From Amphiscolops sp. MND2022 (taxonomy: Eukaryota), in NCBI GenBank assembly GCA_964187785.1, contig OZ076409.1:23934001-23998000 (forward strand): a stretch of DNA of 64,000 bases. The letters are read 5' to 3'. The translations under genes and the position numbers were made by a program. The notes below the pieces were generated by a model. It was not told the DNA's origin and searched no databases. It worked only from the letters and a program-made list of their open reading frames with translations. This document shows, one piece after another, positions 1-59,247 of this stretch; the stretch's first letter is position 1; the number at the start of each line of letters is the position of its first letter.

Positions 1-1
1 C

Positions 2-574
2 GTACTTCAAAAAACGGCCAAAGAAGCCTTCGGATCTGAAGCCCAACAATTCATTGACAAGGCAATATACGCAAAAATGCCAGATCATGTAAAAAAGATA
101 CTAAACAGGGCGTATCTCGAAGACAAGCCATATAATGACATTGTGCTACACTTGGAAAGAGAAATGAGGCTTAACGGCCTTGGGGCGCCAGATGAAGTAA
201 CACTGGTACCACTAAATAAAGTAGAACCGGCCCCAACAAAAACTGAATCCAAACAAGTCGACAGCACGACGCAAAATGTCAAAAAGGGATATTGCTTCTA
301 CTGCAACAAATTTGGACACTACAAAGCGGAATGTAGGAAAATGAAGAGAGATAAATGAATGCAGATCAGGAAGAACAATGGTCAAACCAACTCTAGTGCA
401 GGCAAATCGCTTAAATGCGACACATGCGGCAAACCTCACAAAATGGAAGATTGTTGGAACGGAGCCAACTCTGCCAACGATCCACGACCTAAGCGTCACA
501 ATAACCCGGAATCAAAAAGGGACGTTCCCGTCCAACCAACGACAGCTAACTCTGTCATTGAATCAAAAAACTAA
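2..574 (+). pseudogene. gag: Gypsy gag C-terminus with two zinc knuckles, interrupted by in-frame TGA at 356-358
   Basis: CFYCNKFGHYKAEC (CCHC) and CDTCGKPHKMEDC; ORFs 77..358 and 359..574 are in the same frame. Confidence 0.9.
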
Positions 575-624
575 ATACGCCGCGCCTGCGCTTCGGGGAA
601 ACAGTAGACGCGAGGGCGTATTTA
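565..624 (+). promoter_or_regulatory. -1 programmed ribosomal frameshift signal (slippery heptamer plus stem-loop)
   Basis: A-AAA-AAC at 565-571 is in gag phase directly before the gag TAA; TAAATACGCC (572-581) pairs with GGCGTATTTA (615-624); the -1 frame is open without stops from 568 into the protease ORF at 1054. Confidence 0.85.
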
Positions 625-3600
625 ACAAACGATCCCCCTACAATTTACACCAACGATACAACTATTGAATGCGATGGAACTCCAACAGAGGACTGGCTGA
701 GACGTCAGGCACTCGCCTCCATACGAAGACCCCTCTTACAAACTGAAACGGATCAGACACAAGATGGGGATAATGGCGACGACCACACACAACCACCAAA
801 CCTTCTCATCCAGCCACCCCTCACCAATACAACACAATCCACCGCAACCCAAATCGAACAAACCGAAAAGGCCCGGGACGACCAACCATCGTCAACACAG
901 ACAAAGGAAGATACCCACGGCTCCACCCAAGTACCTATCTTCCCAGAGGATTTCCCCACATCTCTTAACTCTATCAAAGAGTATGTCACTGAAAAAGATG
1001 GAGAGACGTACTTACCACTCCACTCGACTATAGTCCTAAAGAAAAAGAGAAGAATGCTCTATTTACCACTCGAATTCGGAGAAATCACCATGGACGGACT
1101 TGTCGACTCAGGTGCGTTCATCAATGCTATGTCCTGGTCAGACTATAATGCCATCAAGATGAATACCGATAGTTGTGTCATAAAAGAATACCCACAACCT
1201 CCTTTCAAAATTGAATGCGCAAACGCACAACTAGAACAACCAATAGCCACCGCGGATATTCAGTTTAATATCGGGACATACACTTTCACAGATACCTTCG
1301 TCATCTTATCGAGAACGTCATTCCCTATCATAGGATTAAACTTCATGAGAAATCACCAAGCAGTGATCGACACTGCCAACGGGACGATCAATTTCCCGCA
1401 CGTCGAAATGACGTTAGCCATGACAGACGAAATGAAAAAATGCAACCCAAAACCGCTTCAAATAATGGCAGAAGGACATCAGACACTGCCGCCTCAACAG
1501 ACAACAACAGTAAACGCAATAGTCATAACCACAAACATGCATGACGTCACTGGTGCGGTACAACCACTACCACAATTTGATGAAACAGCAACAATCATTG
1601 TTGCACCAGCTCTGGCGACAGCCCATAACAAAAGGCTCAACATCAGAATCGCCAACCTAACGGATTTCCCTCATACAATAAAGAATCATACAAAGCTGGC
1701 AGAACTACAAATCCTCAAACCTGAGGACACGAAACAAATACGACCAGTTGACGCCGCCGCACTCAAATTGTTAGAAGATCCTTATGACACACACATGTAC
1801 ATTAACGAACTTATGAAATCAAATGAACATGAACAAAGCGATGAAAACCTCTGGTTCCCCACACCCGAGAATCCAGGGAACGAAGAAGAACATACGCCAA
1901 TCCAACGTCGGATCTTGAAGGAAATCCGTGAACTCATCCAAAAGGAAAACTTAGATCCAACCAAAGACCCAGAATCAAGACAAAAATTCCTTGACATGTT
2001 CCAGTGGGAAGGCTCCCAAATCGAAGGCAATGACAGGAAGCAACTTGAACAAACAATAATCGAATACAACGACATTTTTGCGCGTCATCGCCTTGACATT
2101 GGAATCAACAATAGCTTCAAAGTCAAATTAACTCCGAAAGACGAGCGTCCGATTTACACGCAAAGTTTGCCGGTACCAATCAATTTGAAAGAAGACCTAA
2201 CAGTCGAATTGGCGCTAATGCACAGGTACGGCATAATAACGACCCTACCATTTTCAAAGTATGCAAGCCCAATTTTCGCACAGAGGAAACCAAATGGCAA
2301 ATTGCGTCTACTTGTCGACCTGCGAAAAATAAACGCACTAATCTCAGATGACTACATCAACAATAACCATCCAGTTAGCACCTTGTCAGATGCGGCTCAA
2401 CACCTAGCTGGTAAAAAGCTATTTTGCAAATTAGACTGCTCTCAAGCATACCACTGCTTACAAATGGCAGATCAAAGATCCATCGAAATGCTGGCGTTTA
2501 ACTTCGCAAGCAGGACGTTTGCCTACAGACGCTTAGCACAAGGACTGAGCAGGGCTCTGTCGGCATTTTCAAGTTTCATGAGAGAATACTTAGACAAAGT
2601 GATCAAAGCCGACCAGTGCGCACAATATGTGGATGATATCGGGATCGCAGCCAATTCAGTGACGCAACTGATACGTAACATCAAAGCCGTTTTCGAATGC
2701 ATCAGACAAGCGGGGCTTAAACTAACCATGAAAAATGCCATTTCGGGGTGACTGAGGTTGAATTTCTTGGAAGAACAATCACTCCGCAAGGAATTGCCCC
2801 CCAAGACCATAAAATACAAAAATTTCTGGCAAATGTACGATTTCCAAAATCAAAAAAGCAGGTACAAAGATACATTGGTTTTGTCAATTATTATCGCAAT
2901 TACATCCCGCGATTATCTGAAAAATTACTCGGATTCTATGAATTGTTGAAAGCAGATAAACAAATCAAAATCACAGAAGAACTACTTGACCATTACAAAG
3001 CTATCAACGCAACACTGGCGCAAGCTTGCGGTTTGGCACTCAAACAACCAATCACAGGACGACAGTACGTCCTGATGACGGACGCCAGTTTCCGAGCCTC
3101 CGGCTATGCACTAATGATTGAGGAAAACAACGACAAAAAACTCAATTCAAAAAAGAAGACATTTGCGCCGGTCGCATTCGGATCGAAAGTATTTTCCCCA
3201 GCTCAACTAAAAATGTCTATTTACTGCAAAGAATTCCTAGCAATTTACCATGCATTTCTAGAATACAGCCATATATTGTGGGAAGCAACGCTACCAACAC
3301 TCGTAATGACCGATAACAGGTCAGTCACGCGCTTCTTTCAAACAAAAGCCATACCGCCTACGCTGTGGAACGCGTGTGACTATGTGCTACAATTCAACTT
3401 TCACATAATGCACGTCGCTGGTACGCAAAACACTGCAGCCGATTTCTTATCACGCATTGAACTTACCCCCAAAGAACGCGTTGAATTGAAAATAAGAGAG
3501 GACATTACAATCAGGCCCATCCAAGTGAATCTCCAATCTACGGACGTCGCGGATGAGGAACAGCTTTTCTTCCTTCCGGATGAAACAATTGAAACAGAAG

Positions 3601-5501
3601 AAGAAATCCTATTGCAGAAGGAACAAGCTAGACAAAATGCGCGCGACGAAGAGACGCCCAAAATTAAACTAGCCATCAAAGAAACCACCCCAATTCCAAT
3701 AAATAAAGCATCTTATACCTTTGGAGCAATAAAAGAGGATGCTCGCATCAGAGTCGAACAAGATTCAAACCTAGTTTTCAAAGCAATCAAAAAGAAACTG
3801 ATTTCTGAAGATTATGACAAACACCTATTACAAACTGATCCGACAGCCAAACGCCTTCTAGTCCACGAAAGCAGACTAATTGTCAAAGATGGAGTATTAA
3901 TGCGAAAGTACTACGGCGAATGTGGACAAGTTACCCACCACCAAATATTAATTCCCGAACACTTGGTTACAGAACTCTTGAAGGCAATACATGGACAAAT
4001 GGGAAAACACCCGGGGATTACAAAAATGATTCAAGAATGCCGATCAAAGTACTATTACCCCGGCCTAGCAAAAAGAATCAGACAGTGGGTAATGCAATGC
4101 GAAGACTGCATCAAATACAAACGAATCAACAACAGCCAAATCAGATCGAAAATGATCAACAATACGGAACACGTCCTTGGTCCGGAGGACATTCTTGAAA
4201 TTGACATACTACCAAATTTGCCAAGCTCTGCAGGATACCAGAACATCGTTACGATGATCGACGTATTTTCACGTTACCTATTTGCATATCCAACACAGAA
4301 TGTCACAGCGAAAACAATCGGACGATGCATTGTCGACGTTATGACAAGACATGCATACTTGCCAACACTAATCCTATCAGACAAGGGCTCACAATTTCGA
4401 TCAGAAGTCGTCACAGAAATAGCCCAAATACTCAAGATTCAAATCCGCCACGCGTCTACAAAACATGCACAGACGATCGGAATTTTAGAAAGAACACACG
4501 CGTCAATCAAAACCGCACTAAAAATTTCGACGGGTGAACGACGTTCAATGTGGCACAAGTATGTCCAAATAGCTGTAATGAACTACAATACAACATACCA
4601 CGAGACTCTGGGCTGTGAACCATCTACAGTATTCCACGGACGAATACCCTACAATGTCCTCGACCTAAAATTGGGGATCAAGCCAAAGTGGAAAACAACG
4701 CCCAACTCAGACATAGCAGAGCAAATACAAAAACAAATAGACGAGGTACGAGCGACAGCGAAGGAAAATATAATGCTATCCTACCTCAAATATAAAAAAT
4801 AATACGACCGCAAAGCGTCTGCAGCTCCACTGAAGATCAACGATTATTGTTACATACTCAATCCGAAAGCCGACAACCAGTCGACGAAGTTTGCGTTCCA
4901 AGACTGCATATGGACTGGCCCGTACATAGTGATCAAAGTGCTTTCCAATAATAACTACACAATACGCAAACTTGGCACAAGATATACACAAACACTACAC
5001 AGAATTCGCATACGACCTTACGTGCCAGAACAACGCTTGCCTGACGTCACAGTACGAGCCGACAATTACCTTCCCGATCCAGATGTCAAAATTTCACACA
5101 ATGAGTGGTACGCAGTCTCATGGGAAATGGATTTCGGGAAACAGATCGACGAGCACGAGTCGCGAGAAAACGAAAACAATCATCAACAACCAGTCACACA
5201 AGAGGTAGCGAACACGCAGGACGAAACGGCGACGCAACAAATACTGGACAACAAACCTGAAACTACGGACGACAAAGCGCCGCCATCTCCGGACTTTTCA
5301 AATCTTACTACAGACGTGGGGGATAATCCATATATACGGCGCCCCCCACCCATTGAAAACCCACCTATTCCCCCAAAATCGCCGCCTACAATAGTTGGAT
5401 ATAATCCAAGGAAAATAGCGAAATACAATCTACGACCTAATCCCAAACCCAATACTAATCCTGACTTTAGAAGACTTGACGCTATCACTACGACTCACTA
5501 G
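568..5501 (+). pseudogene. pol: Gypsy pol (protease, RT, RNase H, integrase); frameshift near 2730 and premature TAA at 4800-4802
   Basis: LVDSGA protease; QYVDD RT; MTDAS RNase H; H..HPG..C..C zinc-binding domain and IDIL/SDKG/ILER integrase core. A 1-nt loss breaks the LTxEKCHFG motif; 4929..5501 continues in the same frame as 2748..4802. Confidence 0.95.
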
Positions 5502-5784
5502 AAAGGGAAAAGAGCACCATCAAGTGTCCAGATCGAACCGACCTGACGACTTTAATTACTGGCATACTAAGGCCTCTTTTTCTTGATTTTCTTTGACTCC
5601 AATTTCTTTTCTACTATTTTGCTGGGGAGTCAATCACTATCAGCTAATTTTAAAATCCAGCAAAATAAAAATAGCCAAAAGGCAACGACTACAATCAAAT
5701 AAATAAAAACTGCAATAAAAGAAGCACAAAAGACTACTACTAAAGTTTAACAACAACAGTTGTATCAAGTCTCGACTACACATC

Positions 5785-8700
5785 TTAGTGACTCTTGGAC
5801 TTGGGACTCAATCGTTTTCCAATCGACTTCACACTTTTTGGCCCCTCGTGTGACTGATCTTTAGAGGACTCTTTCTCTGCGCTTTTATTTGACGCTTCTT
5901 TCTTACCAACAGACGCCTTCTTGACGGGCTTCAGCTCCTTTTTCTGCCCAAGAATAGCAGCCAAGGAAGACTCCGCAGTATAAGTACGTTGCCTTGACGT
6001 CCCAGCATCGGAACCAGACCCAGGAGAAGCAATGGCAAATGAGGTAGCAGGCAGCACACCACCACGAGGAGAACTGCAGACACTTGACCCACCCGAACCA
6101 CCAGACTCCGAAAAACGAACTTGGCGCGGCTGACGGTTGGCACTATGAAGCTGCTTCGTGGCTTCACTTTTCTTGCGGCTCAGATAGGCATCAAAGGCTG
6201 AAGAATAATGACGCACAAAGGCCGAACGATCGCCACATGACACACTCTCCCAAGGGTCAAAACTGGCACAAGACATGAAACCCCGACTGCTGGCTATGGC
6301 ATCGCGAACGCTTTCCATGGTTCCCTGAGTGAAGAAAGCGCCCTGCTTGTACCCGGGAGAAGACACAAGACTTTGGACGCCCCTCAGAGACGACGTCACG
6401 ACGGAAACAGGAACGGCACAGTCCTTGAGATCAATTTCAATGTCAGGCATCTTTCTGCGAGGGCGATCCACTACCAAGCAGCACACTTTCAGTACCCGGA
6501 CGAGGCTTCTCCGTGACATGAAACTGTAGTCCGAAAGCAGATACTCAGTAACATCTTCGATCTGCTCCGCACTTCGCTCTGACTCCTGATGCCGCGTCCT
6601 AGCATCGACGACGAATGTGGCGAACTCCTCACGACTCGACTGTGCATCACTGCTGGAGAGACAGCCACATCGCTCGAGAACGCGAACCAGACGAGAGAAC
6701 AGCTGAAAGACATGCTGGTCGTCGCCCTCAAGGAGCAGCTCAGGGCAAAAGCAATACAACCCCTGGAAGAAATCCGAGGACACAACCTGCTGACCCAAGA
6801 TGACGTCCACCAGCCGGTCCACAAATTCCCGACAACGATTGCGGAACTCACGCGCCTCATCAGTGTTTGAACGATGTAGTTCAGCCCCAAACTCGTAACT
6901 CTGCAAGAAATCGTCAGTACTGACTTTTTCGAACGCTTGCAACTTGCTGGGCTCCATATATGACTCCCAATCATTGAGAGCAGGCAGACTGGACACCTTG
7001 CGACTGCGGATGAGCAAGCAGTACACGAACTGACACACTTCACTGTAGGCATGAAAGGCGTAATCACTACGTCCGGCCTTTTGTTTGACGAAAGTGCAAT
7101 GATCTAAACACAACAGACGGCTGTACACATATTACCAAGACTATGATACCTAGACGACAACCCGATGACGACGATGATCAGCCACCTAGCATACCAAACG
7201 AGCTACTATGCCAACAAAAAAAAACAAAAAAAAACAAAAAAACAACCAAAAACCAAGAATAGCGAAAGAAAGTCACAGGAAAGTACAACTTACAAAGATC
7301 CACAACGTGCAGCAGCATTCCCAGTCGCAGTTCGTTTGTCGTCTCGGAGTAGACGAGCGTGTCTGTGCCTCGCATCTAAATAGCAACAACAAGATGACTA
7401 TTTCGCCAAACCCACAGAGAGACGACACCCCACCGCAAGAATACAAAACAGCACCCTGAAACAAAACTATACCCACCTTGTCAGCCTCGCTCTTGATGTG
7501 TCGGGGACCAGTGTACCGAACGTACTCCCGGACGGTATCCCAAATGGAAACCAACTCAGCCACGACACCAGGCAGTTCGGCGAACGTCACCTTTCCAGCG
7601 ACCACACAACGGCGAAGTTCGGGAAGGTCCTCCATCCAGGGCTCCTGCAAAGCCCCACGAAGACGCACCATCAAGAAGTCGACCATGGTGGTGACTTCTA
7701 ACATCCCGAAGATCTCTTGATGGGCAACTCGATAGCAGTGGAGGAACACATCAGAGGAGAATTCCCGAGCATACACCAAACGATGCCCGTCACTGCGTTC
7801 GTCGTTGACTACCCGCAGGAAGGATGGACTAGCACCACGAATGCTGATAGGGAGAGAAGCTGGGGACAGACTGGTGACGATACGTGACAGTGACGACAGT
7901 TCGGACTGGGGCACTCGCTGACCTAAGGGCTCGACATTGATGCAGATGTCCAGCAAAGTATTGCCCTCCCAAGTCGAAACGAAGCAGTACTGGCCATCGG
8001 CATGCTCCTCAAACCGTACACTGTAGCAGTTGAAGGTCGTCACGCGAGAGATGATGGAGCGCAGGACCCGAGGAAAGAGAGCACGACAAATCAACGACTA
8101 AAACACAAACGCACCAACTCACTCAGCAGATGCACAAACCCACCTACGCCGACCACAAGACGTCCACATACAAAAGAAACAGCACATGATGAGGAAAAAC
8201 AAAACAACTCATCTCTATGAGGATTACTAACCAGTGTCTCAGGACGATTCCAGTGAAGATTATATAGGGGATTGTCAGGCCCCAGAGTGGCACGGAAGTT
8301 GCCCCACAGCTTGCGGAGCAAAACGTAGCTACCACCCCACCTGCATAGCTCTGCCACACAGTTTACCATTGTCAGCAGAGGAATCGTCGAATCCACCCGA
8401 GTACAAGACGGCAGCAAGTCCTCAGGGAAACTGAATCCCTCATTCTTCTCCACTGCATCTTGCCCCAGGTACTCGGCCCGCTGGTCTGACGTCAGCTCGA
8501 GAGGCTTCATCAGCTGATCGAACACTGGCAGACCTTGCTGAACCCGGTAGGCCACATCTCGAGTCCAGTGGCGATCGCCGGAGTAGTGTCGGATGAACTC
8601 CCTTGCCCCGCGTGACTGCATGGAGACATCCCGCTTGCAAATCATGCAGTGGAAGTGAGTGGCCGACCCGTTGCTGGCTCCACTGACAAACAGACTGAAG

Positions 8701-9958
8701 ATAGGATGGTCTCCCACCATATCTTTTCGGAGATGATGACGGCTGCTATACTTCTTGACGGGGGTCTCACGCAAAGCAACCGCCTCCAAACTGCTCTCCA
8801 TCCGAGACATCAGATCTTGCATTCCTACAAAACGACATAACGACGGATTAGCACTAACCAGACTATACCTACAGAAATAGCACAACCAACAAATGCCTAG
8901 ATGTACACTACAGAACCCATTTCAACGTGATGCAGATAACGACTACAGTCATGACAAGGTATACTCACTTGCTAGTACGGGACCAACTCCAGAAGGCTCC
9001 GCCCGGGCCACGTCCAAGTCACTAGCACCAGAAATCCCTTGAGCGGCACAATCTCCAGATTCTACGAAACAAACCAAAGTCACATTTGAATAGCCTATCT
9101 AATAGCCTACCCAACACCCAAGAACGAAGAATTTTATTACCGCTCACAGTAAGCTGCGCAAGATGCAGATTCGCCGTCTGCACGCGCACCTGACGCTTCC
9201 TTTTTCCAGATGAGCCTGTCCCAGCCCTTTCTGCAGCAGTGGACGCAACTATAACGTCAACATGTATCACCAAACAATCAAACAGGGAAATACCTCAAGA
9301 CCAAACAAAATATATCAACCTTACCTCTTTTCCTGGAATCGGAAGGCGTCAGTCCACTGAATGTTTTCCCGAACCCAGTCAGGAAAGGAGTCAACTGAGG
9401 TGAGCTGGAGGTCTGCCCAAGGATCCCAGCTCCTGAAGATTCCGCCCCGAAGACGTCATCTTTCTCTCCGGTGGGGGATACTACCTCGCCTCCGCAAGGA
9501 GAACCAGAGAGCAAGCCCGTAGGATTGACGTCAGGCCTCGAACCTGACGCGACAGGGGTTTCTCCACCAGCAGGGACAGCAGCAGACGACCCACAAGGAA
9601 CACTCTCGAGCTCAGCAGAAGGCGTCACAGGAGAAATGGTCGCAGGAGGAACGCCCACTTCAGCACCAGCAAGAGGAGTAGTCATCACCTTGGGCTCTAG
9701 AAAAGAAAAGGTACATTCCCAGCATCGACGCGTCAAGAAAATCTAAGCTGTGAAAATATGAATCAGAAAAGGCCTATCTGGTAGTAGTATTATTCACAAA
9801 AGCTTAATGGATCAGGGAATGAAATACTCACCAACAGCCCGAGGTCGAATGTCATCCGCGTCACTCTGACGCATGTCTCCCTCCGAGAACACGTATTGCG
9901 TCTCGTGACCACTCTGGGCCCCGGGATCAACTGAAGGGACAGTGGGACGTGAATCCAT
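5785..9958 (-). CDS. Spliced antisense gene, 8 exons, ~1104 aa; BED-like zinc finger and hAT-transposase-like body
   Basis: Proposed exons 9958-9832, 9696-9325, 9248-9141, 9061-8969, 8824-8232, 8097-7477, 7375-7294, 7103-5785. All introns are GT-AG and all phases are compatible; total 3315 nt open to the stop. CMIC-x15-H-x5-H finger in exon 5. Exon 3 boundaries are the least certain. Confidence 0.75.
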
Positions 9959-10030
9959 CGTCAAATAGCTCAGAATCTGAAAACAAACCCGAAGATGAAG
10001 ACAACAACCAAAATTGATGTCATTATAACA

Positions 10031-10360
10031 GTGACAAAACTTAAAGTTAGCAAGCCACCAACGAAATTGACGCTGGCATAACGTCAGTACCAAAAAGTTG
10101 ATTAAAAATCAGCGAAATTGACGTCGGCATAACGTCGACAAAAAGGTTATTGGGTTATTAATCCTATAACCTATAATGACGTCATCACAACGGTGACAAA
10201 ACAAAAGTTAGTTAAGCTAACGAAAATGACGTCAGCATAACGTTGACAATCTTGGCTAAGCGGATTAATTTAATTTGCAGCCAATAAAAAGCGGCGTTGG
10301 AATAACGTCAACACCTGAGGATTGAAAAGGATTAAAATGATTGAATAGCCAATCAGAATG
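10031..10360. promoter_or_regulatory. Putative bidirectional promoter with repeated GACGTC/CATAACGT motifs and CCAAT boxes
   Basis: CGAAAwTGACGyyrGCATAACGTy at ~10062, ~10113 and ~10221, plus a degenerate copy at ~10290; GCCAAT near 10280 and 10348; lies between two divergent ORFs. Confidence 0.5.
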
Positions 10361-10469
10361 GAGGGATTTATCCCAATATTCTCCTTAATCCTAATTAATC
10401 CTGAATTCATTGAGGAACAATCAAAAGATAAAAGTCAGCTGCAAAGAAAGAAAGAATTGCTTGAAGAAA

Positions 10470-11234
10470 ATGACCCATCTACTGGAAATATACGAGCTAA
10501 TAGACATCTCGTCAGATAGTGAAGACGAAACAGAGGCGTCGGAGAGATCATCAACTCCCCTTCCCAGTGGGTCACTACCCAATATTAGAGTCATCCTAAA
10601 TGTTTCAAATTCATCCGCCAGAGCAGTAGCTGACGAAGAAGAGTACTTCGACGTCTCAGCGGACTCGTTAGAAGCGGACTGCAAGAGGATGCGGCTGAGT
10701 TCGTCTTTCGAATCCCTAGAATCAGGAGAACTTAACAACGCTTCGCCGAAGTCTGAATACAGCTCAATGAAGGAGAGTCCAGACAGTCCGGACGAACAGG
10801 AAGAGGACGACAATAAATCGAACCCTGAAGTGTTCGTGGTGGAAGGCCATCGTGCACCAAGCCCACAATCGATCACGAGCTGCATTATCAACGAATATTT
10901 GGAGGAAATCCACAGGGAAGAGGACAATATTCTTCTTTTCGAGACACCCCCAGGCCCACTGAAGAGAGTAATTCCACGTCCGATTAGTCCACTAAACGAC
11001 TTGGAAAAGCAAGCAGCAATACGGTCAGCGGCAGTGAAGCGTACTCCAGGAGACGACAAAGGAAACAATCAATATCAGCCGTTCCAGTTTCGCCAACCCG
11101 GGAGAGTTATACGACCCATGACAGTGGCCCTGTCACAGTCCGCTCCCGGACTGGATTGTGGATGTAGACGGATTGGGTTCGGACGAGGACACGGCTGTAC
11201 AGCGAAACTTTCGAAAAGGTATTTTGGCTACTGA
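10470..11234 (+). CDS. Acidic Ser/Glu-rich 254-aa accessory protein of unknown function
   Basis: Intact ORF from ATG 10470; low-complexity S/E/D composition; N-terminal LIDISSDSEDE. Confidence 0.6.
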   Translation: MTHLLEIYELIDISSDSEDETEASERSSTPLPSGSLPNIRVILNVSNSSARAVADEEEYFDVSADSLEADCKRMRLSSSFESLESGELNNASPKSEYSSMKESPDSPDEQEEDDNKSNPEVFVVEGHRAPSPQSITSCIINEYLEEIHREEDNILLFETPPGPLKRVIPRPISPLNDLEKQAAIRSAAVKRTPGDDKGNNQYQPFQFRQPGRVIRPMTVALSQSAPGLDCGCRRIGFGRGHGCTAKLSKRYFGY

Positions 11235-13067
11235 CTTGAACTTTCATACAAATGTTAGAATAAACTGTGACTAAAAGTACGTCTAACGTGCGCAAAGTTT
11301 AGATGAAAATGAGAACAGAAACTAAAATGAGCAAAAATGATTTCACACACTTCCGGTAGGACGTTTTCATCTCGTCAAAATAGAAACATTCGCCACCTGA
11401 AAACTTAATTAAGAATACGTCTTGAAATAAAGACCATAGACCGATCTAAACAAAAATATACCCAAAATCACCACTGGAAAAAGGACATCATCTGGATCTA
11501 AAATAGAAAGTACATTGAGATGACACACTGAAATATCCACTCCTTTTCTAAGAAAGGCGGCTTAATTGCACTTTGAACAGCAATTAGTACGGATTAGGAC
11601 GTCGGCACTGCGCTAGGTAAACAAAATAAAGAATACATGTATATTAGACGTCGGTAAGAAGCAGACTTGAAACTATATAGTGTGACGTCACCGTTCCGTC
11701 CGCGCTCACTAGAGAACCATTCCAATTTACCGCCTATATTAGTGACACTACTTAAAATCATTCCAATTTTCCGCCATAGTGACGTCACGGTATTGCCTTC
11801 TCGGCGCGGACTAATTCTTACTTCAAATTTACGTCCGCGTTACGTCCAATACCGGTGGTCTATAGCCAATCTTAATACGTACGTCCACGTTACGTCCGAA
11901 ATCCATCAAAATAGTTGGTTTAACCCATCCAATTCAGTGGAATGAATATTAATATGTCGGATTTGACGGAAAAGAAACGTTTAAAGATGTTTTAGAAATC
12001 TACGAGGTTAAGGATAAAACTTGATAATTTACGTCCTGTTCCCGTCAATAAAAATACTAATCTTTTGGAATCACATTGTAAAATGACCCGATTAGGATTT
12101 CCATATTCTTCATAATTAAAGTCACAGTTTATTCCAAAAAGGGGAATGTTATTAATGTACATTTTATGCTGTTTGAAGCAGACCATAAATATGATTGTGT
12201 GTAACCTGACGTCAATCTGACGTATCTGAAAAGTTATGGGCTATGAACCAGCAAAGATTATATTTTAATAATGAGGTCATATTTTTGTAATATTCATATT
12301 CGTGTTTTCCCCCAATATAACTGTGCTTGTTGTTGTTTTTATACATCTCATTGTGATCATTTTCATACTACTTTTGGCAACTGACTGTTTCACTTTTATT
12401 AGTTCAATCCAACGACGTTAAGACGTCAAAGTTTAAACTCGAGTATGAATGAATTCAATTATGAAATTCATACTCGTTAATACCTTTGATTTTAACACGT
12501 CATAGCTCCGTCCACCTTTTCAGCCAATTTTGTAGAAGCCAAGAGCTGTTGCCAAATCATTCTAGTTTTCTAATGTAAACGTTGGTGTTACGTTAATTTG
12601 GTTTAATTACTATTTATCTGAATTGGGAATTCAACTCAAAAATTGAAGCTAATTCCATAGCTTTGTCTTTACTTTTCCTAGCATCATTGGAAATTCCAAA
12701 GCTGAAAACATTAGTCATAGCATTTCCTTCAAGTAAAAATTCAAAATCAGGTATTAGTTGTTCACGTCGGCGTCATCTCCGCGTCATTTTCCTACGAACC
12801 AAAGCAGTAAAACAGGGAATCATTTCCGGTTTGACAGACTGAAGTAATATCTACTTCCTGCTTGGGAGGAAAGCAAAGGACGCCGAGCTGAAATGATATG
12901 ATCGTGGTTGATGACTAATGCTAGATTGAAATTGTCGTGTCTTAAAAATTGACGAGTTATCGAGGTAAAATTGGGAACAAAATGATTTTTTCATCGAAAA
13001 TACAGGAAATGACTAATTGTTCGAGGAAAATTAGGATTTTAATCGTGATCAAATGATGCTAGGAGGA

Positions 13068-13106
13068 TATATATAGGATGATTTTCATTGACTCAGGGAC
13101 TCAGTC
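13068..13106 (+). promoter_or_regulatory. TATA box and initiator in the LTR
   Basis: TATATATA at 13068-13075 and TCAGTC at 13101-13106, followed by ATG at 13223. Confidence 0.5.
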
Positions 13107-13222
13107 TTTTGCAATTGTTTAATTCAGTTGAATTCTCAATTTCGCTAAACTCTCATCTCAACTAACTTTGTTGAAAATTGTCTTTGGAAAAATCAATTCT
13201 TCAAGATAAAGTTTTCTTCAAA

Positions 13223-13616
13223 ATGTCTACAACTAGAAGCCAGAAAAGAAGGAATGAGCAACAAGGCGACAAGGACGTAAGTGAAGGTTTTATTTCACCG
13301 ATAGTGGTAGAAAATCCGCGTTCTTCAAACCAGGACGTAGACGTGTCGGGTCCTTCCAGACCAAAATCTCCTCGAATTGAAAATAGTTTCTTGGAGAGTT
13401 TAAGGGCATCCTTGAAAGATGAGATAACATCAGAAATTAAGACTCTTCTTGCCGAATCCCAGAGAGAGATGTTGAAACTACTAAAACCTGAAACAAGGGG
13501 AAGCATCAGGGAGAATACTGAGGAAGAAGTAGAAGAGGAGACTAGAAACTTTTATACCCCTACAAAGTCAGTGAGAATAAGTTCAACTCAAAACGACTCG
13601 ATAGCATGTCGTAACA
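13223..13616 (+). CDS. LTR-encoded ORF start, probable gag N-terminus truncated at the LTR end
   Basis: MSTTRSQKRR... followed by coiled-coil-like LESLRASLKDEITSEIKTLL; the frame stays open across the terminal AACA and stops only in flanking DNA at 13672. Confidence 0.55.
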
Positions 13617-13783
13617 CACGTTATCCAATTTCAGTGGAACGTGGTGTGAAGAATAAGCTGTATATTCTCTAAACTCACCAGTTGAGTTTAGAATCAGTTA
13701 ACTGATTCTAAACTCAACTGGTGAGTTTAGAGAATATACAGCTTATTCTTCACACCACGTTCCACTGAAATTGGATAACGTGT
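13616..13783. repeat. Perfect spacerless palindrome, 84-bp arms
   Basis: Centre GTT|AAC at 13699/13700; arms complementary out to 13616/13783. Confidence 0.95.
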
Positions 13784-13856: not shown

Positions 13857-14154
13857 GGCAATTGGTTATGCATTGGATCTCGGAACTGCAGTTTTGCTCG
13901 CTCAAGGTCACGAAAATCTGATTGCATACCGTTCCGCTTTTCACTTGTTTTCGCTAACAAATGCGTATTGTATCACTACCACATGACTGAACTAGTGATG
14001 TGAAATTTCACATCACTAGTTCAGTCATGTGGTAGTGATACAATACGCATTTGTTAGCGAAAACAAGTGAAAAGCGGAACGGTATGCAATCAGATTTTCG
14101 TGACCTTGAGCGAGCAAAACTGCAGTTCCGAGATCCAATGCATAACCAATTGCC
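13857..14154. repeat. Perfect spacerless palindrome, 149-bp arms
   Basis: Centre AAA|TTT at 14005/14006; GGCAATTGG...CCAATTGCC ends. Confidence 0.95.
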
Positions 14155-20510: not shown

Positions 20511-21001
20511 ACTCCCTTCTTCAATCTTTACAGTGCTGTAGCAACGGTGTCCAGACTTCATTGTTTGGTTGAAGTTCCTACAGCCATTTCGTCTGTTTTC
20601 TGAGTTGCGTCCGTACTTTACTGTCCGGTTGATACTCAGAAACAACTTTCCTTTTCCCTCCTCGCCGTGTAGACTGTGTCCGGACTTAACTGTCCGGTTG
20701 AGGTCTTTTCGGTCTTCCTCGATTTTCGAGCACCAAAAAAAGGACAAATTGTCACCTCTTGAGGCAACGCGCGTTCTAAAAACCTTGTTTCGTCCCATCA
20801 ACTGCAGTATTGTAGTTGGTGACTACTCTCAAAGAAAACAAACATCACCAACACGCTTCAGCTCCAATATCCCTTTCAGTCAGCTGTGTCTGAGCTCAAT
20901 TGCTTAGTTGACACTGCAATAGAGCTTCTTTGTGAGCATTTGTGACCGAACACAGGCCGTAAATAACGAGTTTTATTCTTGTTTCGGCAATTTTGAGAAC
21001 A

Positions 21002-24000
21002 ATGGCTGAACCGATGCAAGAAAAGGTTCGAAAACTATTCGAAAGCCGTTCCAAGGCGGAAACTGAACTACGAAGAGCCCAGCAAAAAGTTCAAGATGCC
21101 GTAGAAGATGGAGAGCTACGCGTCCGCGTGGAGCGACTTGTAAGTTCATGTGAGGAAGCCATGACAACGTTGCTTTCAAAGCATGACCTTTTGTTAAACT
21201 TGGCTACGAAAACAGAAGACCCGTCGCTAGTCAAGCACGATTTGGAATCTTGGTTGAGCGAAGTGACTACACAAAACGACACAATTCTGAAAAAGGCTCG
21301 TAGTTACATCGATGAATGTCCGAGTGTCGATGTAGCATCTGAACCGTCTACGGCAGCCACTCCAAAAAATAAGCAACCAAGCAAAACATCAAGTGCAAAA
21401 ACGTCGCGTCAATCAAGAACATCTAGTCAAAGACAGAGGGACTTGTTGATTGCAAAACAACGTAAAGAAGAAATAGAGAAACAAAACGAAGCAGCGCTTC
21501 GAATAGCAAAGCAACAGCAAGAACTAGAGCTTGAATGTCTCCAACAGGAACAAGAGTTTCTACGTATTAAAGCTGAACGACTAAGAAAAGAACAAGCACT
21601 CAGAGTTGAAGAACTACAGGAGGAAAACCGGAAAAAACTTGCTGAGGCAACCCTCACTGAGCTCGAACTGAGAGATGACTTGTCCGATTCCCAACTCATT
21701 TTGGAGGAAACGTTGTCGCAGCTTTCATCCAAAGCCGACGGGACAGCACGTGTTAAAGACTGGGTAAACAACTCACCTGTTGTTAACGCATCTGCTCCTA
21801 CGAACACCGTGACTGGGACCATGCCAGAACAGGAAGCAATTGTTTTGCCTGTTACAACTACAAGTCCAAGCATTGAACCAATAGTTGGAATTGCAAATGT
21901 ACACACTGTATCCGCTACAGCGTCGACATCAAATAATGCACCCGCAATGCAACTACAGAACATTACCGTTCCACAAGCAACCATGGGCGCGGCCCATTTA
22001 CCTGTCAATCCTCCGGTGATGAGTACACCGACGACAAATGCATTTGCGCCACCCATCGTGCCAACCGTAATGGTGCAGTCACAACCGTTAACCGTACCCG
22101 CAAGCCATGTTTTACCGAATTTGTCTGCATGGACGTTTCCACCTGCCACCAACAACGCGCCGACAGGTGTGATTCCCGTCACCACTTCGATTCAAGTAAC
22201 ACCAACGTTACCTAAAGCGGTTCCAACTACCACTGGTAATCCCACTCCAACACCCGTTATTCCAGTCACTGCAGGAGGAACTGTGTACTATCTCAGTCCA
22301 TCGTCCCTGGCTACCGTAACAATGCCTACTAGTGCACCACTTCCGACCGTCTCTACTATTTCACCAACCGCATTGACATTTACATCGTCTCCAACAATCG
22401 CCCCTCCGACAAGCACTTTCACAGTTCAAGATCTGGCACAACTGTTAATGTCATCGAAAAAGGACCATCTTCCAGAATGGAAACTGGCTCAGTACAGTGG
22501 GGATCCACTTCAATGGCACGAGTGGTTCGGCCAGTTTAAGAGTGCCATTGACTCAGCGCCTTTAACCGATGACGTGAAACTGACTTACTTGAAAACCTTG
22601 GTTTCCGGCAAGGCAAAGACGGCAATTGCTGAATTTGCTTACTGTGGCGCCATGTACAAGGACGCCTTGAAGACATTGGAGCGCAAGTTTGGACAACCAC
22701 AGACCGTTGTGAGCGCTTATTTAGACAAACTTGCAAACTACCCACCAGTCAAAATGCACAATAGTGACAGCATAATAAGCTATTCGGCAACAGTTTCGTC
22801 ACTCGTGGGAGTCTTCCGGTCTCTAAACTATTTACAAGATCTGTCAAGTGCTTCCCTGCTAGGCCAAGCCATTCAGAAACTTCCGCCCAACCTGAAGGAA
22901 GCTTGGTCAATGAATACTGTGAAACGAAATCTGGACCGGCCAACATTGATTCATTTCAATGACTGGCTAAAGGAGAAAGCAGAAGCGCATGAAAGAATGA
23001 AAGCCACTTCCAGTAAGCCCAAAGCCGAAGACGTTCCTGCTTCAACTGTAACCAAGACCAAAACAGGAACCAAGGTTTTTGCCGCGACCACCAGTAATCA
23101 AGTAACTACTGAAACCAAACCAAAAGGTGACAGACACTGTGTAGCCTGCAAAGACAGTCATCCGCTTTGGCGTTGTCCAGTTTTCCGCCAAAAAACACCA
23201 ACAGAGCGAACTAAGTTAGCCGCGGAGGGCAAGCTCTGCTTTTCTTGTCTCAACGAAGGGCACGCCTTCCGCCAATGCCCCCAACCAAGACAATGTACTA
23301 AGGAAGGCTGTAGTAGCTCTCACAATACTTTACTGCACGGCTCCGACAGAATATTTCCACGAAGAACATCAAATGAAGAAAGCAAAAATAACAAAGTTGA
23401 TACTGGTAGATCATCCAAGGTCAGTCAGAAACAATCCAGCAGCGAGAGTTCCGGCATGCCTTCCGTGTCCGACGTCAAAGGTTTGTTACAGATTACGGAA
23501 GTTGAGTTAGAATATCCGTCGTGCTCGGAAAAGGTACTTGTCTTGTGTGACTCAGCTTGTAGTCACTCTTGGATTTCGAAAAAACTGGCTGACAGACTCC
23601 AGGTTAAAGGCTCTCCAACTAAATTAACTGTCCACGGGATAAACTCCCAACAACTGATAGACACGGAAACAGTTGAACTCAAGTTGACACCCGTTCATTC
23701 AGGTGGCTCTTGTTCATCCTTTGCCGTGAAACCATTTGTTCGAAACGACTTGAAAATCGGAAACGATTTGATAGACGTCGAAAATCTGAAAACTAAGTAC
23801 CCGCACTTAGAACCGGTTCCCCTGAGCAAGTACAGCTATGCCGATGTTGAGATGATTCTTGGCCAGGATGTTTTCCATTCTATCCGCCCATTGGAGTACT
23901 TCGAATCCGACCGTGCGAATACTCCAATAGCCGTTCGTTTACCGTTGGGTTGGGTATTGAGTGGTCCACTTCCTTCAGCCACGGGTCTTTTCTCGACTTG

Positions 24001-27000
24001 TTTCAAAGCTGTTGCTAGCTCTGAAAAGGATTCAATTCTCGCCGAACAACTTCGTAGCTGGTATGACATGGAGTCATATGGAGCTCACAAACAAGCTGAC
24101 TCTCGTTCCGCCGCCGATGCGCAAGCGATGAAGATTCTCGAAGAGACAACATTCAATGATGGCTGCCGTTACCAAGTTGGAATGTTGTGGGCCGACAAAG
24201 AAAGTACGTTGCCGAACAACTACTTCTCGGCTCTCGTTCAAATGAAATCGTTAGAGCGTCGCCTTGGAAAAGATCCTCAACTGAAAGAAAGCTACAGCAA
24301 AACAATCCAAGAGGATATTGCAAAAGGGTATATTGTTAAAGTCGATAAATCCGAGTGCTTCCGAACCGACAACTGTCGTGAGTGGTACTTGCCACATCAT
24401 CCCGTGATCCATCCGCACAAAACCCGGTAAAGTTAGAAGAGTTCTCAATGGTGCTGCGAAGTTCCACGGGTATTCTCTAAACAATGTTCTTTTGACCGGC
24501 CCGGATATGCTGCAAAACTTGATTCACATCCTTTTCAGATTCCGTCAGTACCCCAACGCCGTATCCGCCGACATTGAAGGAATGTTCCTACAAGTAGGAG
24601 TTATTCCGAAAGACCAGCCATCCATTCGTTTTTTGTGGCGGGAAGATCCATCAACCGAAGTTTCTGTGTTTCAATACGTCAGACACATCTTTGGCGCGAA
24701 GGACTCTCCGACTTGCGCAAATTACGCTCTGAAGAGAACCGCAACAGACAACGCTGACATGTTCCCAAAAGCCGCTCAGAGCGTGCACACCAACTTCTAT
24801 ATGGACGACTATCTCGAGTCGAGCCCAACCGCGGAAGAAGCTGCCCAAAAGGCTAAAGACTTGGTGAAAATGCTTTTATTAGGCGGTTTCAAACTCACCA
24901 AGTTCGTATCAAACGACCCGAAGATTTTGAATCGAATTGAACCGGATTCAGAGAATCAAAGCAATGATGGAAAACAATTACCGACACAGGACGAGTCTTC
25001 CCACGTCCTTGGCCTCAAGTGGAATCACAAATCAGACACACTTGTTGTCAGTCGAGGTACAACGCCGGACACTCAACGAACTGTCAGTCAAAGAATCGTG
25101 TTGAGTCTGGTCTCTGCGTGTACGACCCTATTGGTCTCGTAGCCCCGTATACAGTTAAGGCTCGACTTCTCTTGAAAGACATTTGGAGACTGAGTGGTCA
25201 GAAATGGGACGACGTCCTACCAGACGACATCATGACCAAGTTTACAGCGTGGAGTTCTGAACTGAGATCCCTTAGCCAGATTGTCATACCGAGAAGCTAT
25301 TTCCAGCAAAATGTCGAGCGTTTGGAACTACACATGTTTGGGGACAGTTCGCAAGACGTGTTCAGTGCCGTGGCTTTTCTGAGAGGAAAGATCGTTTCGG
25401 AACATGGCAGCTCAACAGAGTTAGCTTTTGTTTTCGGAAAAGCACGTGTTGCACCAATGAAAGCCTTGACAATCCCAAAGCTGGAACTCCAAGCTGCTCT
25501 ACTTTCTGCGAGGCTCAGAAATGACATCCAAAAAGCCTTGACTCTGAAAATAGAAAAGACTTTCATGTGGACCGACAGCACTACCGTACTCCAATGGTTA
25601 CATTCTCTCGAGAAGCAACCAGTTTTTGTCGCAAACCGAGTTGCGGAAATTTTGGAGTTTACAACTGTAGACGAATGGTTTCACGTTCAGTCTGCCGACA
25701 ACCCTGCGGACGCAGGAACGAGAGGTTTGTCTGCTAAAGAACTCCTTGCAAGTTGTTGGTTGAAAGGACCCAGCTTCTTGAAAACTTCTGATTGGCCTTT
25801 CAAGCCATGCGAAAACTTCCGAACGAAACTGAAGCAAGCGAAACCGGATCCGAATGATGTACGAATGACAGAGTCGTGGACAATGTTAATCGCACACCAA
25901 ACTGCCATTGCAGAAACGTTTCAGTGGCAGAAGTATTGCTCATACGAGAAACTCCTGCGCATTACCGCCTATATGCTTCGTCTTTTGTTGAAGAGTAACT
26001 TGTATAAGAGTAAAACTGGTGGCATCACTGATCCCGCAGAACTTGAAAATGCTGAACTACATCTCTTTTACTTGGTTCAGACCGAGTCCTTTGCAACAGA
26101 AAAAAGTAATCTCTTCAAGTCCTCGCCGCTTAGCGGTAAGTCTAAAATCGCTCAATTTTCTCCCTTTATTGGACCAGGCGGTCTTTTAAGAGCTTCGGGA
26201 CGAGTGAAACAACTCACGATTGCTACGTTTGATGTGAAACATCCCATCATACTGGATGCCCGTCATCCGTTGACAAAACTACTGTTGGAGCACTTGCACA
26301 CACAACATTGTCATCAGGGTGTTGACTACCTCCGAGCATTGGTGCAGCAGCGATTTGCTGTAGTCAAGTTGAGAACCGCCCTGAGAACCATTGTTTCGAG
26401 ATGCGTTGTTTGTCGCAAACGAAGAGCCGAAACTCTGACTCCTATAATGGCGGACCTGCCCCGTGAAAGACTTGCGTTCAAAGAACCACCGTTTTCAAAC
26501 ACTGGCGTCGACTACTTTGGACCTTTTTTTGTATCTGTGAAGCGTTCTACTGAAAAACGTTGGGGTTTTCTCTTCACATGCCTCACGACTCGAGCTGTTC
26601 ACTTGGAAGTTGTCCCAAGTATGGACACCAGTAGCTGCGTGATGGGAATTGAAAGGTTTTACGCCCGTCGTGGCATCCCCTCAGTTATTTGGTCCGACAA
26701 TGGGACAAATTTTGTAGCTAGTGAGAAAGAACTCCTGTTTAATATCAAGAATTGGAACCAGCAAGTCCTCGGAGAAGCACTCGTGAGGAAAGGAATAAAA
26801 TGGAAGTTTAATCCACCTAGTGCTCCGCATCACGGAGGTGTTTGGGAACGTGTTGTCCGAAGCTTCAAACACGTCTTTTACGCTGTCCTGGGAAACCGCC
26901 GATTGACAGATGAAGTTTTGATGACAACGTTCTGCTTGATCGAACAATGTCTCAACGCTCGTCCAATTACACCAGCTTGTACCAACCCAGCAGACTTAGA

Positions 27001-27385
27001 TGCACTAACCCCAAATCATTTCCTACTGGGAACCGCCAGTTCAACGCTACCTACTCATTTTCACGCCGAAGTAGATCATCGAAAGCGGTACGTTCGTGCC
27101 CAAGCGTACTCAGACGCTATTTGGAATCGTTGGCTCAAGGAGTACATTCCAAATCTGAATCACCGTTCAAAATGGTGCAAGTCGCCCAACAGAGAACTCA
27201 AGACCGGAGATCTTGTTTGGATAGTTGAGCCAACTGCACCTAGAGGACACTACCCGCTTGCCCGTGTTGTGAAGTTAAACTTCGGCACTGATGCCGTCGC
27301 CAGATCCGCTGAAGTCAAAACATCAACTGGTAACCTCGTTCGTCCCGTTGTTAAGCTCGCCCCTGTTCTCCCCGTTCCCGAATAA
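21002..27385 (+). pseudogene. gag-pol: BEL/Pao gag-pol polyprotein with two single-base frameshifts (~24421 and ~25117)
   Basis: YSGDPLQWHEW gag domain, three Cys/His knuckles, LCDSAC protease, YLPHHPV and YMDD RT, FGDSS and TIPKLEL RNase H, GVDYFGP/SDNG/WER integrase, LTPNHFL C-terminal domain. Confidence 0.95.
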
Positions 27386-31200: not shown

Positions 31201-31457
31201 CGGTGTTCCCAGAGTTGCGCAGCATCTCGCAGGAACAACGGTGCTTGCTCGAAGAGCAAAAATTCTCATTATACCTTTTTGTTAAGTTGACGGCAGTCAT
31301 TATATACAATTACCTGGCAGGCTGATGATATTTATCGTTGAATCCCGGAATAACTTACACAAAAGTGGTAGTCTCAATATTTCCTTTTGATTCTCCATTA
31401 CCAAAGGTTGGTCCCTTTTGCTCAGGCGTTTTACTAGCAGTGCTCTAATTACCTCCA
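28240..31457 (-). repeat. Three tandem ~1074-bp units
   Basis: Period 1070/1074/1074; the second and third are nearly identical, the first is more diverged. Confidence 0.9.
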
Positions 31458-58200: not shown

Positions 58201-59247
58201 CCGGTCCCGAGGGTTAACGGGGGGTGACTGAAACTATATCCCCCAACTCGTCTCATTGAGTACTACAATAAGTTACCTAACGTTCCCCGGCTGGGACCGA
58301 CCCTTTGGGCTTAAAAAGTGACATTTCCGGTCACATAGCGGTTAGGCTGGGGGGCCAAGTCGGTAACGGTGATAGATAGCGGAAATCTGTTTGCCCCCCT
58401 GAAGGCACCATATCATGGGTATGAAACCTTGTAGTAGTGATGGACACGATTGCTCCACGCGTTCACGAGATATTTACCCCTCAATGCCCATTTTACGGTT
58501 TTAGCAGTAAAAAAAGGAGGCGGAAGCGCCATTTCCCGCTAACGGGTTGGTCCAGGGTGTCCCAAACCACATGTTTCTGATAGGTCCTTGTCTAAACCTA
58601 CTTTTGATATATGGCACCCGACGCGCTACTCCCACTCCTTCACACCGGAAATAGCGGTAAAACGTGGAGGGGGGCAATTTTCCCGCTCATATAACGGTCA
58701 TTTCCTGTCCGGGGGGTAAACTGAGGTTGACAAACTACATGTCCCCCACTTCGTCTCAAGGCCGTCCCCAAAACATCACCTAACGACCCCGCGCTCAGAC
58801 GACTCCTTCCGGGTCAAAAACCTGCGTTTCCGGAAAAATAACGTTTTGGGCGGGGGGGTACTTGGAGATAGCTTCAAGATAGAAAAATTTGGTTTGGACC
58901 TCCGGAGCCCTTGCAACACGGTCAAGAAACTTTTAGCAGGGTCCCAAAGTTTTAAATCAACAGAAAAAAAGTTATGTGGCCCAATATGAATTTTACCCCT
59001 AAAATGACCCCCTAACGGTCGCCCGTGTGGCCAGAAAAAAATTTTCCGGGGTATGGAACCCGGTGGGGGGCGCTAATTTTCGGAAAATCTGGTGGGGGCC
59101 GCTCCAACTTTAAAATCCTATGGTTAGATCACGAGATCCCGAATCCTATCCAAATTTTCTTAACGAAAGCTGGCAGCACTGAACTCGGATTCAGGACCCT
59201 ACCCGAATCCTCCAAAAATTTTGTTGGGGTTTCCCCCCCGCACCTAG
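55280..59247 (+). repeat. Two tandem ~2-kb units of a distinct subfamily rich in AACGGT / TTTCCGG motifs
   Basis: 55280-57253 and 57254-59247 are colinear and nearly identical over their 3' ~1.3 kb. Confidence 0.9.

What the first reader, a model, noticed from the sequence alone, without database searches (positions are those of the whole stretch)
5785..9958. Gypsy element carries an intact 8-exon antisense gene resembling a dead hAT transposase
Seen: five or more separate minus-strand ORFs join via seven GT-AG introns into one ~1104-aa frame, while gag-pol has three lesions. By-eye similarity to hAT transposases: BED-like finger, PDNPLYNLHWNRPET (cf. PDS..L.L.RTK), YSVRFEE where FSL..DE carries the first catalytic Asp, FRNRCREF...LYCFCP, and no evident ER.FS catalytic motif. 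Known: introns oriented antisense to the genomic RNA survive retrotransposition. Inference: a DNA-transposon gene domesticated by a retrotransposon as a DNA-binding regulator, targeting factor or anti-silencing factor.
Basis: partly seen in the sequence, partly recalled or inferred. Interest (0 to 1): 0.8.

Follow-up and report, generated by a model that had tools for sequence, protein, structure and literature searches.

The report
Retrotransposon carries a disarmed DNA-transposase gene
A whole family of copy-and-paste jumping genes in this genome carries, on its opposite strand, a conserved eight-exon gene that likely descends from the cutting enzyme of an unrelated cut-and-paste transposon, appears to have lost its cutting site, and is predicted to act as a DNA-binding regulator that helps the element stay active.

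Summary
Observation confirmed. Eight minus-strand exons (9958-5785) joined by seven GT-AG introns give 1104 aa with no stop. They lie between pol and the 3' LTR of a young Ty3/Gypsy element (LTRs 2486 bp, 99.7% identical; 5-bp TSD). It is not a nested hAT: no TIRs flank it, and 39 of 40 sampled copies sit antisense behind pol, down to 26% identity. Seven distant copies encode exons 5-8 as one ORF, which confirms junctions 5-7. dN/dS is 0.02-0.08 between neighbouring subfamilies. The exon-6 model shows an RNase H-like start followed by helices. Its top Foldseek hit is a hAT transposase in two libraries (E 0.012-0.014, below significance); no sequence method detects hAT. A CCHH finger is conserved, but the DDE triad is not. 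The 'intact versus three lesions' contrast is chance. Verdict: an old, selected accessory gene of a Gypsy clade, probably a dead hAT transposase (~0.8). Function is untested; a DNA-binding anti-silencing activator is most likely (~0.4).

The parts
9832..9958 (-). exon 1 (ATG at 9958)
9697..9831 (-). intron 1, unusually conserved (80-92% across alleles)
9325..9696 (-). exon 2, S/P/G-rich, fast-evolving, probably disordered
9141..9248 (-). exon 3, basic KRKR cluster (candidate nuclear localisation signal, inferred)
8969..9061 (-). exon 4
8232..8824 (-). exon 5: zinc finger plus helical region (inferred DNA-binding/dimer domain)
8568..8648 (-). C-x2-C-x16-H-x5-H finger; the four ligands are conserved in near and distant clades
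7477..8097 (-). exon 6: predicted RNase H-like strands 1-4, then long helices; best structural match Hermes residues 155-355
7294..7375 (-). exon 7
5785..7103 (-). exon 8: all-helical region, no ER.FS motif, basic S/G-rich tail, stop at 5785-5787
10010..10245 (-). five ~22-nt repeats with a TGACGTCA-like core, ~50-58 nt apart, upstream of the ATG (candidate promoter or binding array, inferred)
10395..11234 (+). second accessory ORF (279 aa, acidic/S-rich, no Pfam match); its last 34 codons lie in the LTR
11131..13616 (+). 3' LTR (TG...CA), 99.7% identical to the 5' LTR, which lies upstream of the window (-2952 to -468)
13617..13621 (+). 5-bp target-site duplication CACGT
1..571 (+). 3' part of gag, with a premature stop after 355
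562..5501 (+). pol (PR-RT-RH-IN, Gypsy order), broken in two places

Best explanation
This is a spliced antisense accessory gene that a Ty3/Gypsy clade carries between pol and the 3' LTR; it likely descends from a hAT DNA transposase that lost its catalytic triad, and it most likely works as a nuclear DNA-binding protein that keeps its own element transcribed against host silencing. Shown: gene structure, position, spread through three Gypsy sub-clades, purifying selection, conserved CCHH finger, and no conserved DDE at the expected places. Inferred: a hAT once inserted antisense into an ancestral element and lost its TIRs and catalysis. Its introns survive reverse transcription because the genomic RNA is the other strand. 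It is transcribed from the repeat array upstream of exon 1. The finger and scaffold bind element DNA as an oligomer, and the disordered ends recruit or block chromatin factors, much as VANC does for VANDAL elements. Selection acts while elements replicate, not after insertion. Odds: hAT origin ~0.8, catalytically dead if hAT ~0.9, activator/anti-silencer role ~0.4.
For: Position and strand kept in 39 of 40 sampled elements, and the same three groups appear in the RT and exon-8 trees. dN/dS is 0.02-0.08 at dS 0.8-2.5. The exon-6 model has helix-b1-b2-b3-a-b4-a then long helices. Foldseek ranks Hermes 1-6 in the PDB (E 0.012-0.038, prob up to 0.94) and a hAT protein first in BFVD (E 0.014, prob 0.90). 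Of the rows listed, only Hermes aligns over the whole exon-6 model (4-207 to 155-355). For an 890-aa relative, all seven named ESM Atlas rows include hAT-related families (cosine 0.79-0.82, a lead only; for one row, DUF7963, the link is not shown). The finger ligands and basic clusters are conserved. The gene is far more diverse than pol (54-67% vs 94-97% aa) and is shuffled among backbones, as expected of a specificity factor in a conflict. Equal break rates in pol and in the gene point to element-level selection.
Against: No structural hit reaches E<=0.001. In VIA-align, Hermes ranks 25th (Z 5.6, rmsd ~16), below eL38 and glucokinases. The exon-8 model gave no clear match. Pfam, PDB sequence profiles, and hmmsearch/hhalign against host hAT ORFs found nothing. 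Alleles are not locked to one LTR or upstream-repeat type: the window's backbone occurs with 98%, 67% and 57% alleles, which argues against a strict VANC-like lock and key. Nothing here tests DNA binding, localisation or silencing.
Confidence: 0.42

Rival explanations
1. Self-restraint factor: the protein (or its antisense transcript) represses the element's own LTR and limits copy number, as antisense genes of some retroviruses modulate sense transcription.
For: Antisense orientation and DNA-binding anatomy fit equally well. Domesticated transposases often act as repressors (own knowledge).
Against: Deep allele diversity and shuffling beyond that of pol fit conflict with a host better than self-damping. 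The families are abundant and recently active (LTR identity 98-100% in most rows).
Confidence: 0.17
2. Integration-targeting tether: it binds chromosomal DNA or chromatin and the element's integrase, and steers insertion sites.
For: Transposase scaffolds bind both DNA and protein (own knowledge). It is kept in cis in 39 of 40 sampled elements.
Against: Integrase stays 94-97% identical while alleles diverge to ~55% and swap freely, which is hard to square with a tight interface. The TSDs read show no shared motif by eye.
Confidence: 0.14
3. RNA-handling factor (Rev/CERV-like): it binds genomic RNA, perhaps at the conserved intron-1 block, to export or protect it.
For: Intron 1 is more conserved (80-92%) than its flanking exons. 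CERV shows that an LTR element can need a spliced accessory protein for export (PMC10309623, abstract).
Against: No covariation in the block (0 of 16 predicted pairs) and no Rfam match. The transposase-type scaffold suggests DNA binding.
Confidence: 0.12
4. Not hAT-derived: a captured gene with some other RNase H-like or unrelated fold plus a zinc finger; the hAT hits are the best of weak matches.
For: No significant sequence or structure hit. eL38 and sugar kinases score higher Z on the first 110 residues.
Against: hAT comes first in two Foldseek libraries and in the named Atlas rows. The order finger, helices, RNase H-like start, helical insertion follows the hAT layout (own knowledge).
Confidence: 0.15
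5. Nested, still-independent hAT insertion, or a host-domesticated single copy.
For: The window's copy is unbroken while its gag-pol is broken.
Against: No flanking TIRs. Same site and strand across Gypsy clades whose RTs are 79-100% identical. Break rates are equal to pol. Every sampled copy lies in LTR-element context.
Confidence: 0.02

Closest known systems
Retand/Tat plant Gypsy elements with antisense TRP28 ORFs (PMC11963269; abstract, Discussion and passages read)
   Same: Long pol-3'LTR region with a lineage-wide antisense gene predicted to bind DNA, often beside tandem repeats; function unknown.
   Different: TRP28 is reported as confined to flowering plants, with no similarity to other TEs; the word 'intron' does not occur in that paper. 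Here the gene has 8 exons, ~1100 aa, a CCHH finger and a hAT-like fold.
Hermes/hAT transposases and domesticated hAT genes (ZBED, ZNF862, FAM200, DAYSLEEPER)
   Same: N-terminal CCHH finger, then a predicted RNase H-like fold interrupted by helices; best structural hits are hATs.
   Different: No TIRs or 8-bp TSD, no conserved DDE, no Pfam hAT domain. Domesticated by another mobile element rather than by the host.
VANC anti-silencing proteins of VANDAL (Mutator-like) elements (PMC5735166; abstract read)
   Same: TE-encoded accessory protein that diversifies between related elements, with short repeats in non-coding DNA as candidate targets.
   Different: No homology was seen. The carrier is an LTR retrotransposon; alleles are not locked to one repeat or LTR type; activity is untested.
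PMD-A domains of plant Gypsy elements (PMC5418596; passages read)
   Same: Chromatin-related domain carried by a Gypsy lineage and related to domains found with DNA transposons.
   Different: PMD is not a transposase scaffold; there the MULE copies were captured from host genes.
CERV of Cer1 (PMC10309623; abstract) and ORF3 captures of rotifer LTR elements (PMC5408684; abstract)
   Same: Accessory genes of LTR retrotransposons; CERV is spliced and nuclear, and rotifer ORF3 types are shared between TE classes.
   Different: The abstracts describe no antisense or transposase-derived gene; the rotifer ORF3s are env, GDSL esterase or DEDDy exonuclease.

Membership tests
Ty3/Gypsy LTR retrotransposon (carrier) | Two LTRs with TG...CA ends and a short TSD | tested here: met
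   2486-bp LTRs, 99.7% identical, TSD CACGT
Ty3/Gypsy LTR retrotransposon (carrier) | pol order PR-RT-RH-IN | tested here: met
   Pfam Asp_protease (weak, E 0.003), RVT_1, RT_RNaseH, Integrase_H2C2, rve in that order
Ty3/Gypsy LTR retrotransposon (carrier) | PBS after the 5' LTR and PPT before the 3' LTR | tested here: inconclusive
   TGG-starting PBS-like site present; the 25 nt before the 3' LTR are not purine-rich
hAT DNA transposon (as an element) | Terminal inverted repeats and 8-bp TSD around the transposase gene | tested here: not met
   No inverted pair at the gene's two flanks among the 25 longest of 64 short pairs; copies lie in LTR elements
hAT transposase (as a protein) | N-terminal BED-type CCHH zinc finger | tested here: inconclusive
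   C-x2-C-x16-H-x5-H conserved across clades, but no Pfam zf-BED match
hAT transposase (as a protein) | RNase H-like domain interrupted by a helical insertion | tested here: inconclusive
   Topology fits, and hATs rank first in two Foldseek libraries at E 0.012-0.014; VIA Z 5.2-5.6 with rmsd ~16 over 166-171 residues, rank 25
hAT transposase (as a protein) | Catalytic D, D, E (Hermes D180, D248, E572; PMC2533014 passages) | tested here: not met
   End of strand 1: position 30 variable (E/V/R/K), position 31 mostly D/E. After strand 4: G in 76 of 80 near and 7 of 7 distant rows. No ER.FS and no conserved acid in exon-8 residues 211-228. The mapping is inferred from topology and alignment range.
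hAT transposase (as a protein) | C-terminal hATC domain PF05699 | tested here: inconclusive
   No Pfam hit in 44 exon-8 members or in the full-length relatives; exon-8 model pTM 0.40, no clear match
hAT transposase (as a protein) | Oligomerisation and sequence-specific DNA binding | not tested
Retand-type TRP28 antisense gene | PF04195 Transposase_28 domain | tested here: not met
   No Pfam-A match in exons 2, 5, 6, 8 or in relatives
VANC-type anti-silencer | Binds own element's motifs and removes silencing in trans | not testable with these tools
   Repeat array present; allele and repeat type only partly linked, with clear recombinants

The most novel reading that the evidence does not exclude
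A retrotransposon lineage has domesticated the transposase of a DNA transposon into a multi-allelic, intron-bearing counter-silencing factor. Alleles are swapped among elements like a cassette, in an arms race with host silencing. Spliceosomal introns were gained or lost inside the retroelement lineage itself (introns 5-7 present in two clades, absent in a third).
Probability: 0.35. Interest if true: 0.9.

Novelty: new variant of a known kind. Interest (0 to 1): 0.8.

Why it matters
Transposase domestication is normally done by hosts. Here the domesticator appears to be another mobile element of the other class, and the gene has been kept through the radiation of a large, recently active Gypsy clade. 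It gives a rare handle on what the antisense accessory genes of LTR elements do, an open question since the plant Retand ORFs: the transposase-like scaffold predicts DNA binding, and a natural allelic series (26-99% identity) on near-identical backbones allows specificity to be tested. It is also a natural system for intron gain or loss inside a retroelement.

Tried and rejected
No RNA holder was listed for 5700-10100; this is no evidence either way. The search for homologous proteins for longer relatives of exon 8 gave nothing. The Atlas search with exon 6 alone gave only unnamed hits at 0.81. Pfam, PDB-sequence, hmmsearch and hhalign tests against hATs were blank. DUF4371 found no match in the own genome, and the control genomes were also blank, so that search is uninformative. 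The exon-8 model matched only generic helical bundles. The JGI metagenome scan confirmed no relative among 456 pattern hits. An RNA structure in intron 1 got no covariation support. A gag-pol-less copy that keeps the gene is a one-off: 1 of 40 scored matches spans its junction, so it is not a non-autonomous family. Mantel tests of allele against LTR, upstream repeats and pol gave rho 0.36-0.59, but close kin inflate them; they were not used as co-evolution evidence. Earlier findings: none returned. One paper search on a recalled guess at the host taxon was seen as a listing only and not used; the host is not identified here.

Full report
OBSERVATION. The minus strand holds eight exons (9958-9832, 9696-9325, 9248-9141, 9061-8969, 8824-8232, 8097-7477, 7375-7294, 7103-5785). 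They join through seven GT-AG introns of 76-190 nt into 3315 nt, 1104 aa, with no internal stop. In 8 sister copies, 54 of 56 projected introns keep GT-AG. Introns 2-7 fall to 45-70% identity in the distant copies and take indels of any length. Exons 5-8 keep frame except for one insertion and one 1-nt loss. Exons 2-3 are the least secure. Independent support for junctions 5-7 comes from 7 of 7 distant elements, which encode exons 5-8 in one frame: the projected gaps are 0 nt and 78-84 nt, and exon 7 is 82 nt. No transcript data were available.

CARRIER. The gene lies between pol (Pfam PR, RT, RH, IN in Gypsy order) and a 2486-bp 3' LTR at 11131-13616. That LTR is 99.7% identical to a 5' LTR just upstream of the window, with a CACGT duplication. 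Over 15 copies (4 of 19 left out: the yardstick copy, two without most of pol, one badly decayed), breaks run at 36 in 69.6 kb of pol and 8 in 18.2 kb of exons 5+6 (p=0.85). Copies therefore decay evenly after insertion, and the window's copy is not specially preserved.

SPREAD. The genome (1.07 Gb, host not identified) gave 96 of 96 scored matches to exon 8 at 67-100% identity, and further groups; these counts are lower bounds. I examined 40 elements: the window plus 39 picked by hand from the hit lists, favouring open frames, so not a random sample. Of these, 39 have pol on the opposite strand upstream, and 39 have a flanking direct repeat of at least 500 nt (in one row the script picked a neighbouring repeat, and that copy's LTR pair is seen). 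No TIR pair flanks the gene. Trees of 35 copies (exon-8 tree in quick mode only, midpoint root) show the same three groups for RT and exon 8. The gene thus seems older than the split of these sub-clades, whose RTs are ~80-88% identical while the gene is 26-52% identical. Inside the window's group, RT/RH/IN stay 94-97% identical while the gene falls to 54-67%, and alleles are shuffled: two copies with identical RT carry 98% and 57% alleles. A profile search of 1.84 billion representatives gave 842 hits at E<=0.001. Two of them match this genome at only ~50% and ~36%, which suggests related elements in other genomes (inference; their context could not be seen).

SELECTION. Window versus neighbouring subfamilies: dN/dS 0.02-0.06 (exon 5), 0.08 (exon 6) and 0.05-0.07 (exon 8), at dS 0.8-2.5. 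More distant pairs are saturated or give 0.11-0.27. pol gives 0.02-0.07 over the comparable pairs.

PROTEIN. Residues 1-230 and the last ~130 are S/P/G-rich with basic clusters. Exon 5 holds C-x2-C-x16-H-x5-H, whose ligands are kept in all clades examined. The exon-6 model (80 sequences, pLDDT 76.5, pTM 0.47) reads helix, three strands, helix, strand, helix, then long helices. Foldseek ranks Hermes transposase chains 1-6 in the PDB (E 0.012-0.038) and a hAT protein first in BFVD (E 0.014); none passes E 0.001. VIA-align puts Hermes at rank 25 (Z 5.6, rmsd 15.7, 166 residues), below eL38 and glucokinases, but Hermes is the only listed chain covering model residues 4-207 (Hermes 155-355). For the 890-aa relative P0342, the named Atlas rows are hAT-related families at cosine 0.79-0.82, a lead only. 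Against this: no Pfam, PDB-sequence, hmmsearch or hhalign signal, and no clear match for the exon-8 model (pTM 0.40). Hermes needs D180, D248 and E572 (PMC2533014, passages). At the positions inferred to correspond: the end of strand 1 has a variable residue followed by a mostly acidic one; the site after strand 4 is G in 76 of 80 near and 7 of 7 distant rows; and exon 8 has neither ER.FS nor a conserved acid at 211-228, which the model shows as coil. I conclude probable hAT ancestry (~0.8) and loss of catalysis. The motif likeness to ZNF862/ZBED-type hATs is recalled and comes from no call.

MECHANISM. Shown: an old, selected, antisense, intron-bearing gene fixed in a Gypsy clade, more diverse than pol and exchanged between backbones. 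Inferred: an antisense hAT insertion lost its ends and catalysis; antisense introns are not spliced from the genomic RNA and so persist; five TGACGTCA-core repeats upstream of the ATG (similar clusters in most sister copies) drive or regulate it; the protein binds element DNA and counters silencing. I put this role at ~0.4, self-restraint at 0.17, integration targeting at 0.14 and RNA export at 0.12. The lack of a strict link between allele and LTR or repeat type is the main point against a VANC-like lock and key.

KNOWN AND NEW. Antisense accessory ORFs behind pol are known from plant Retand elements (PMC11963269; abstract, Discussion, passages). Gypsy-borne PMD domains (PMC5418596, passages), CERV (PMC10309623, abstract), rotifer ORF3 captures (PMC5408684, abstract) and VANC (PMC5735166, abstract) are the nearest analogies; PMC6431247 (passages) added nothing. 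Six full-text searches of the held library (listings and abstract starts) showed no report of a hAT-derived or multi-intron antisense gene in an LTR retrotransposon. Subscription papers, Repbase reports and supplements were not seen and could hold one. Rated a new variant of a known kind, interest 0.8.

Noticed in passing
window 10395-11234 (+): A second accessory ORF of 279 aa whose last 34 codons lie in the LTR. It occurs as types ~45% identical, with dN/dS 0.2-0.3 and no Pfam match, and assorts independently of the antisense allele (Mantel rho 0.02).
   Followed up: partly
window 9697-9831: Intron 1 is 80-92% conserved even between alleles ~55% identical in protein, and holds three palindromic words. 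No Rfam match, no covariation; plus-strand fold z -1.97.
   Followed up: partly
window 7376-7476 (-): Intron 6 folds into a long hairpin, z -4.84, better than all 200 shuffles.
   Followed up: no
L114, L116, L118, L120, L122, L124, L126 vs window: One sub-clade lacks introns 5-7 that the other two sub-clades have; direction of change not rooted. Some distant database proteins end at exon-8 residue ~203, hinting at a further intron there.
   Followed up: partly
window 11106-11130: No purine-rich polypurine tract directly before the 3' LTR; the 279-aa ORF runs through this spot.
   Followed up: no
L038-L039 (G000:C2:68.10 Mb): A copy lacking all of gag-pol but keeping both LTRs (99.4% identical) and the antisense gene region; its junction was found once among 40 scored matches.
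   Followed up: yes
window 13616-13783 and 13857-14154: Two perfect palindromes (168 nt; 149-nt arms with no spacer) directly beside the element's 3' end.
   Followed up: no
window 20963-27385 (+): Three long ORFs that look like a BEL/Pao element (by recalled motifs; not scanned).
   Followed up: no
window 28300-38400 and 41300-60100: Arrays of ~1075-nt, ~355-nt and ~2-kb repeats, the latter partly inverted.
   Followed up: no
L033: One close copy has a 2.1-kb tandem duplication within the antisense gene.
   Followed up: no
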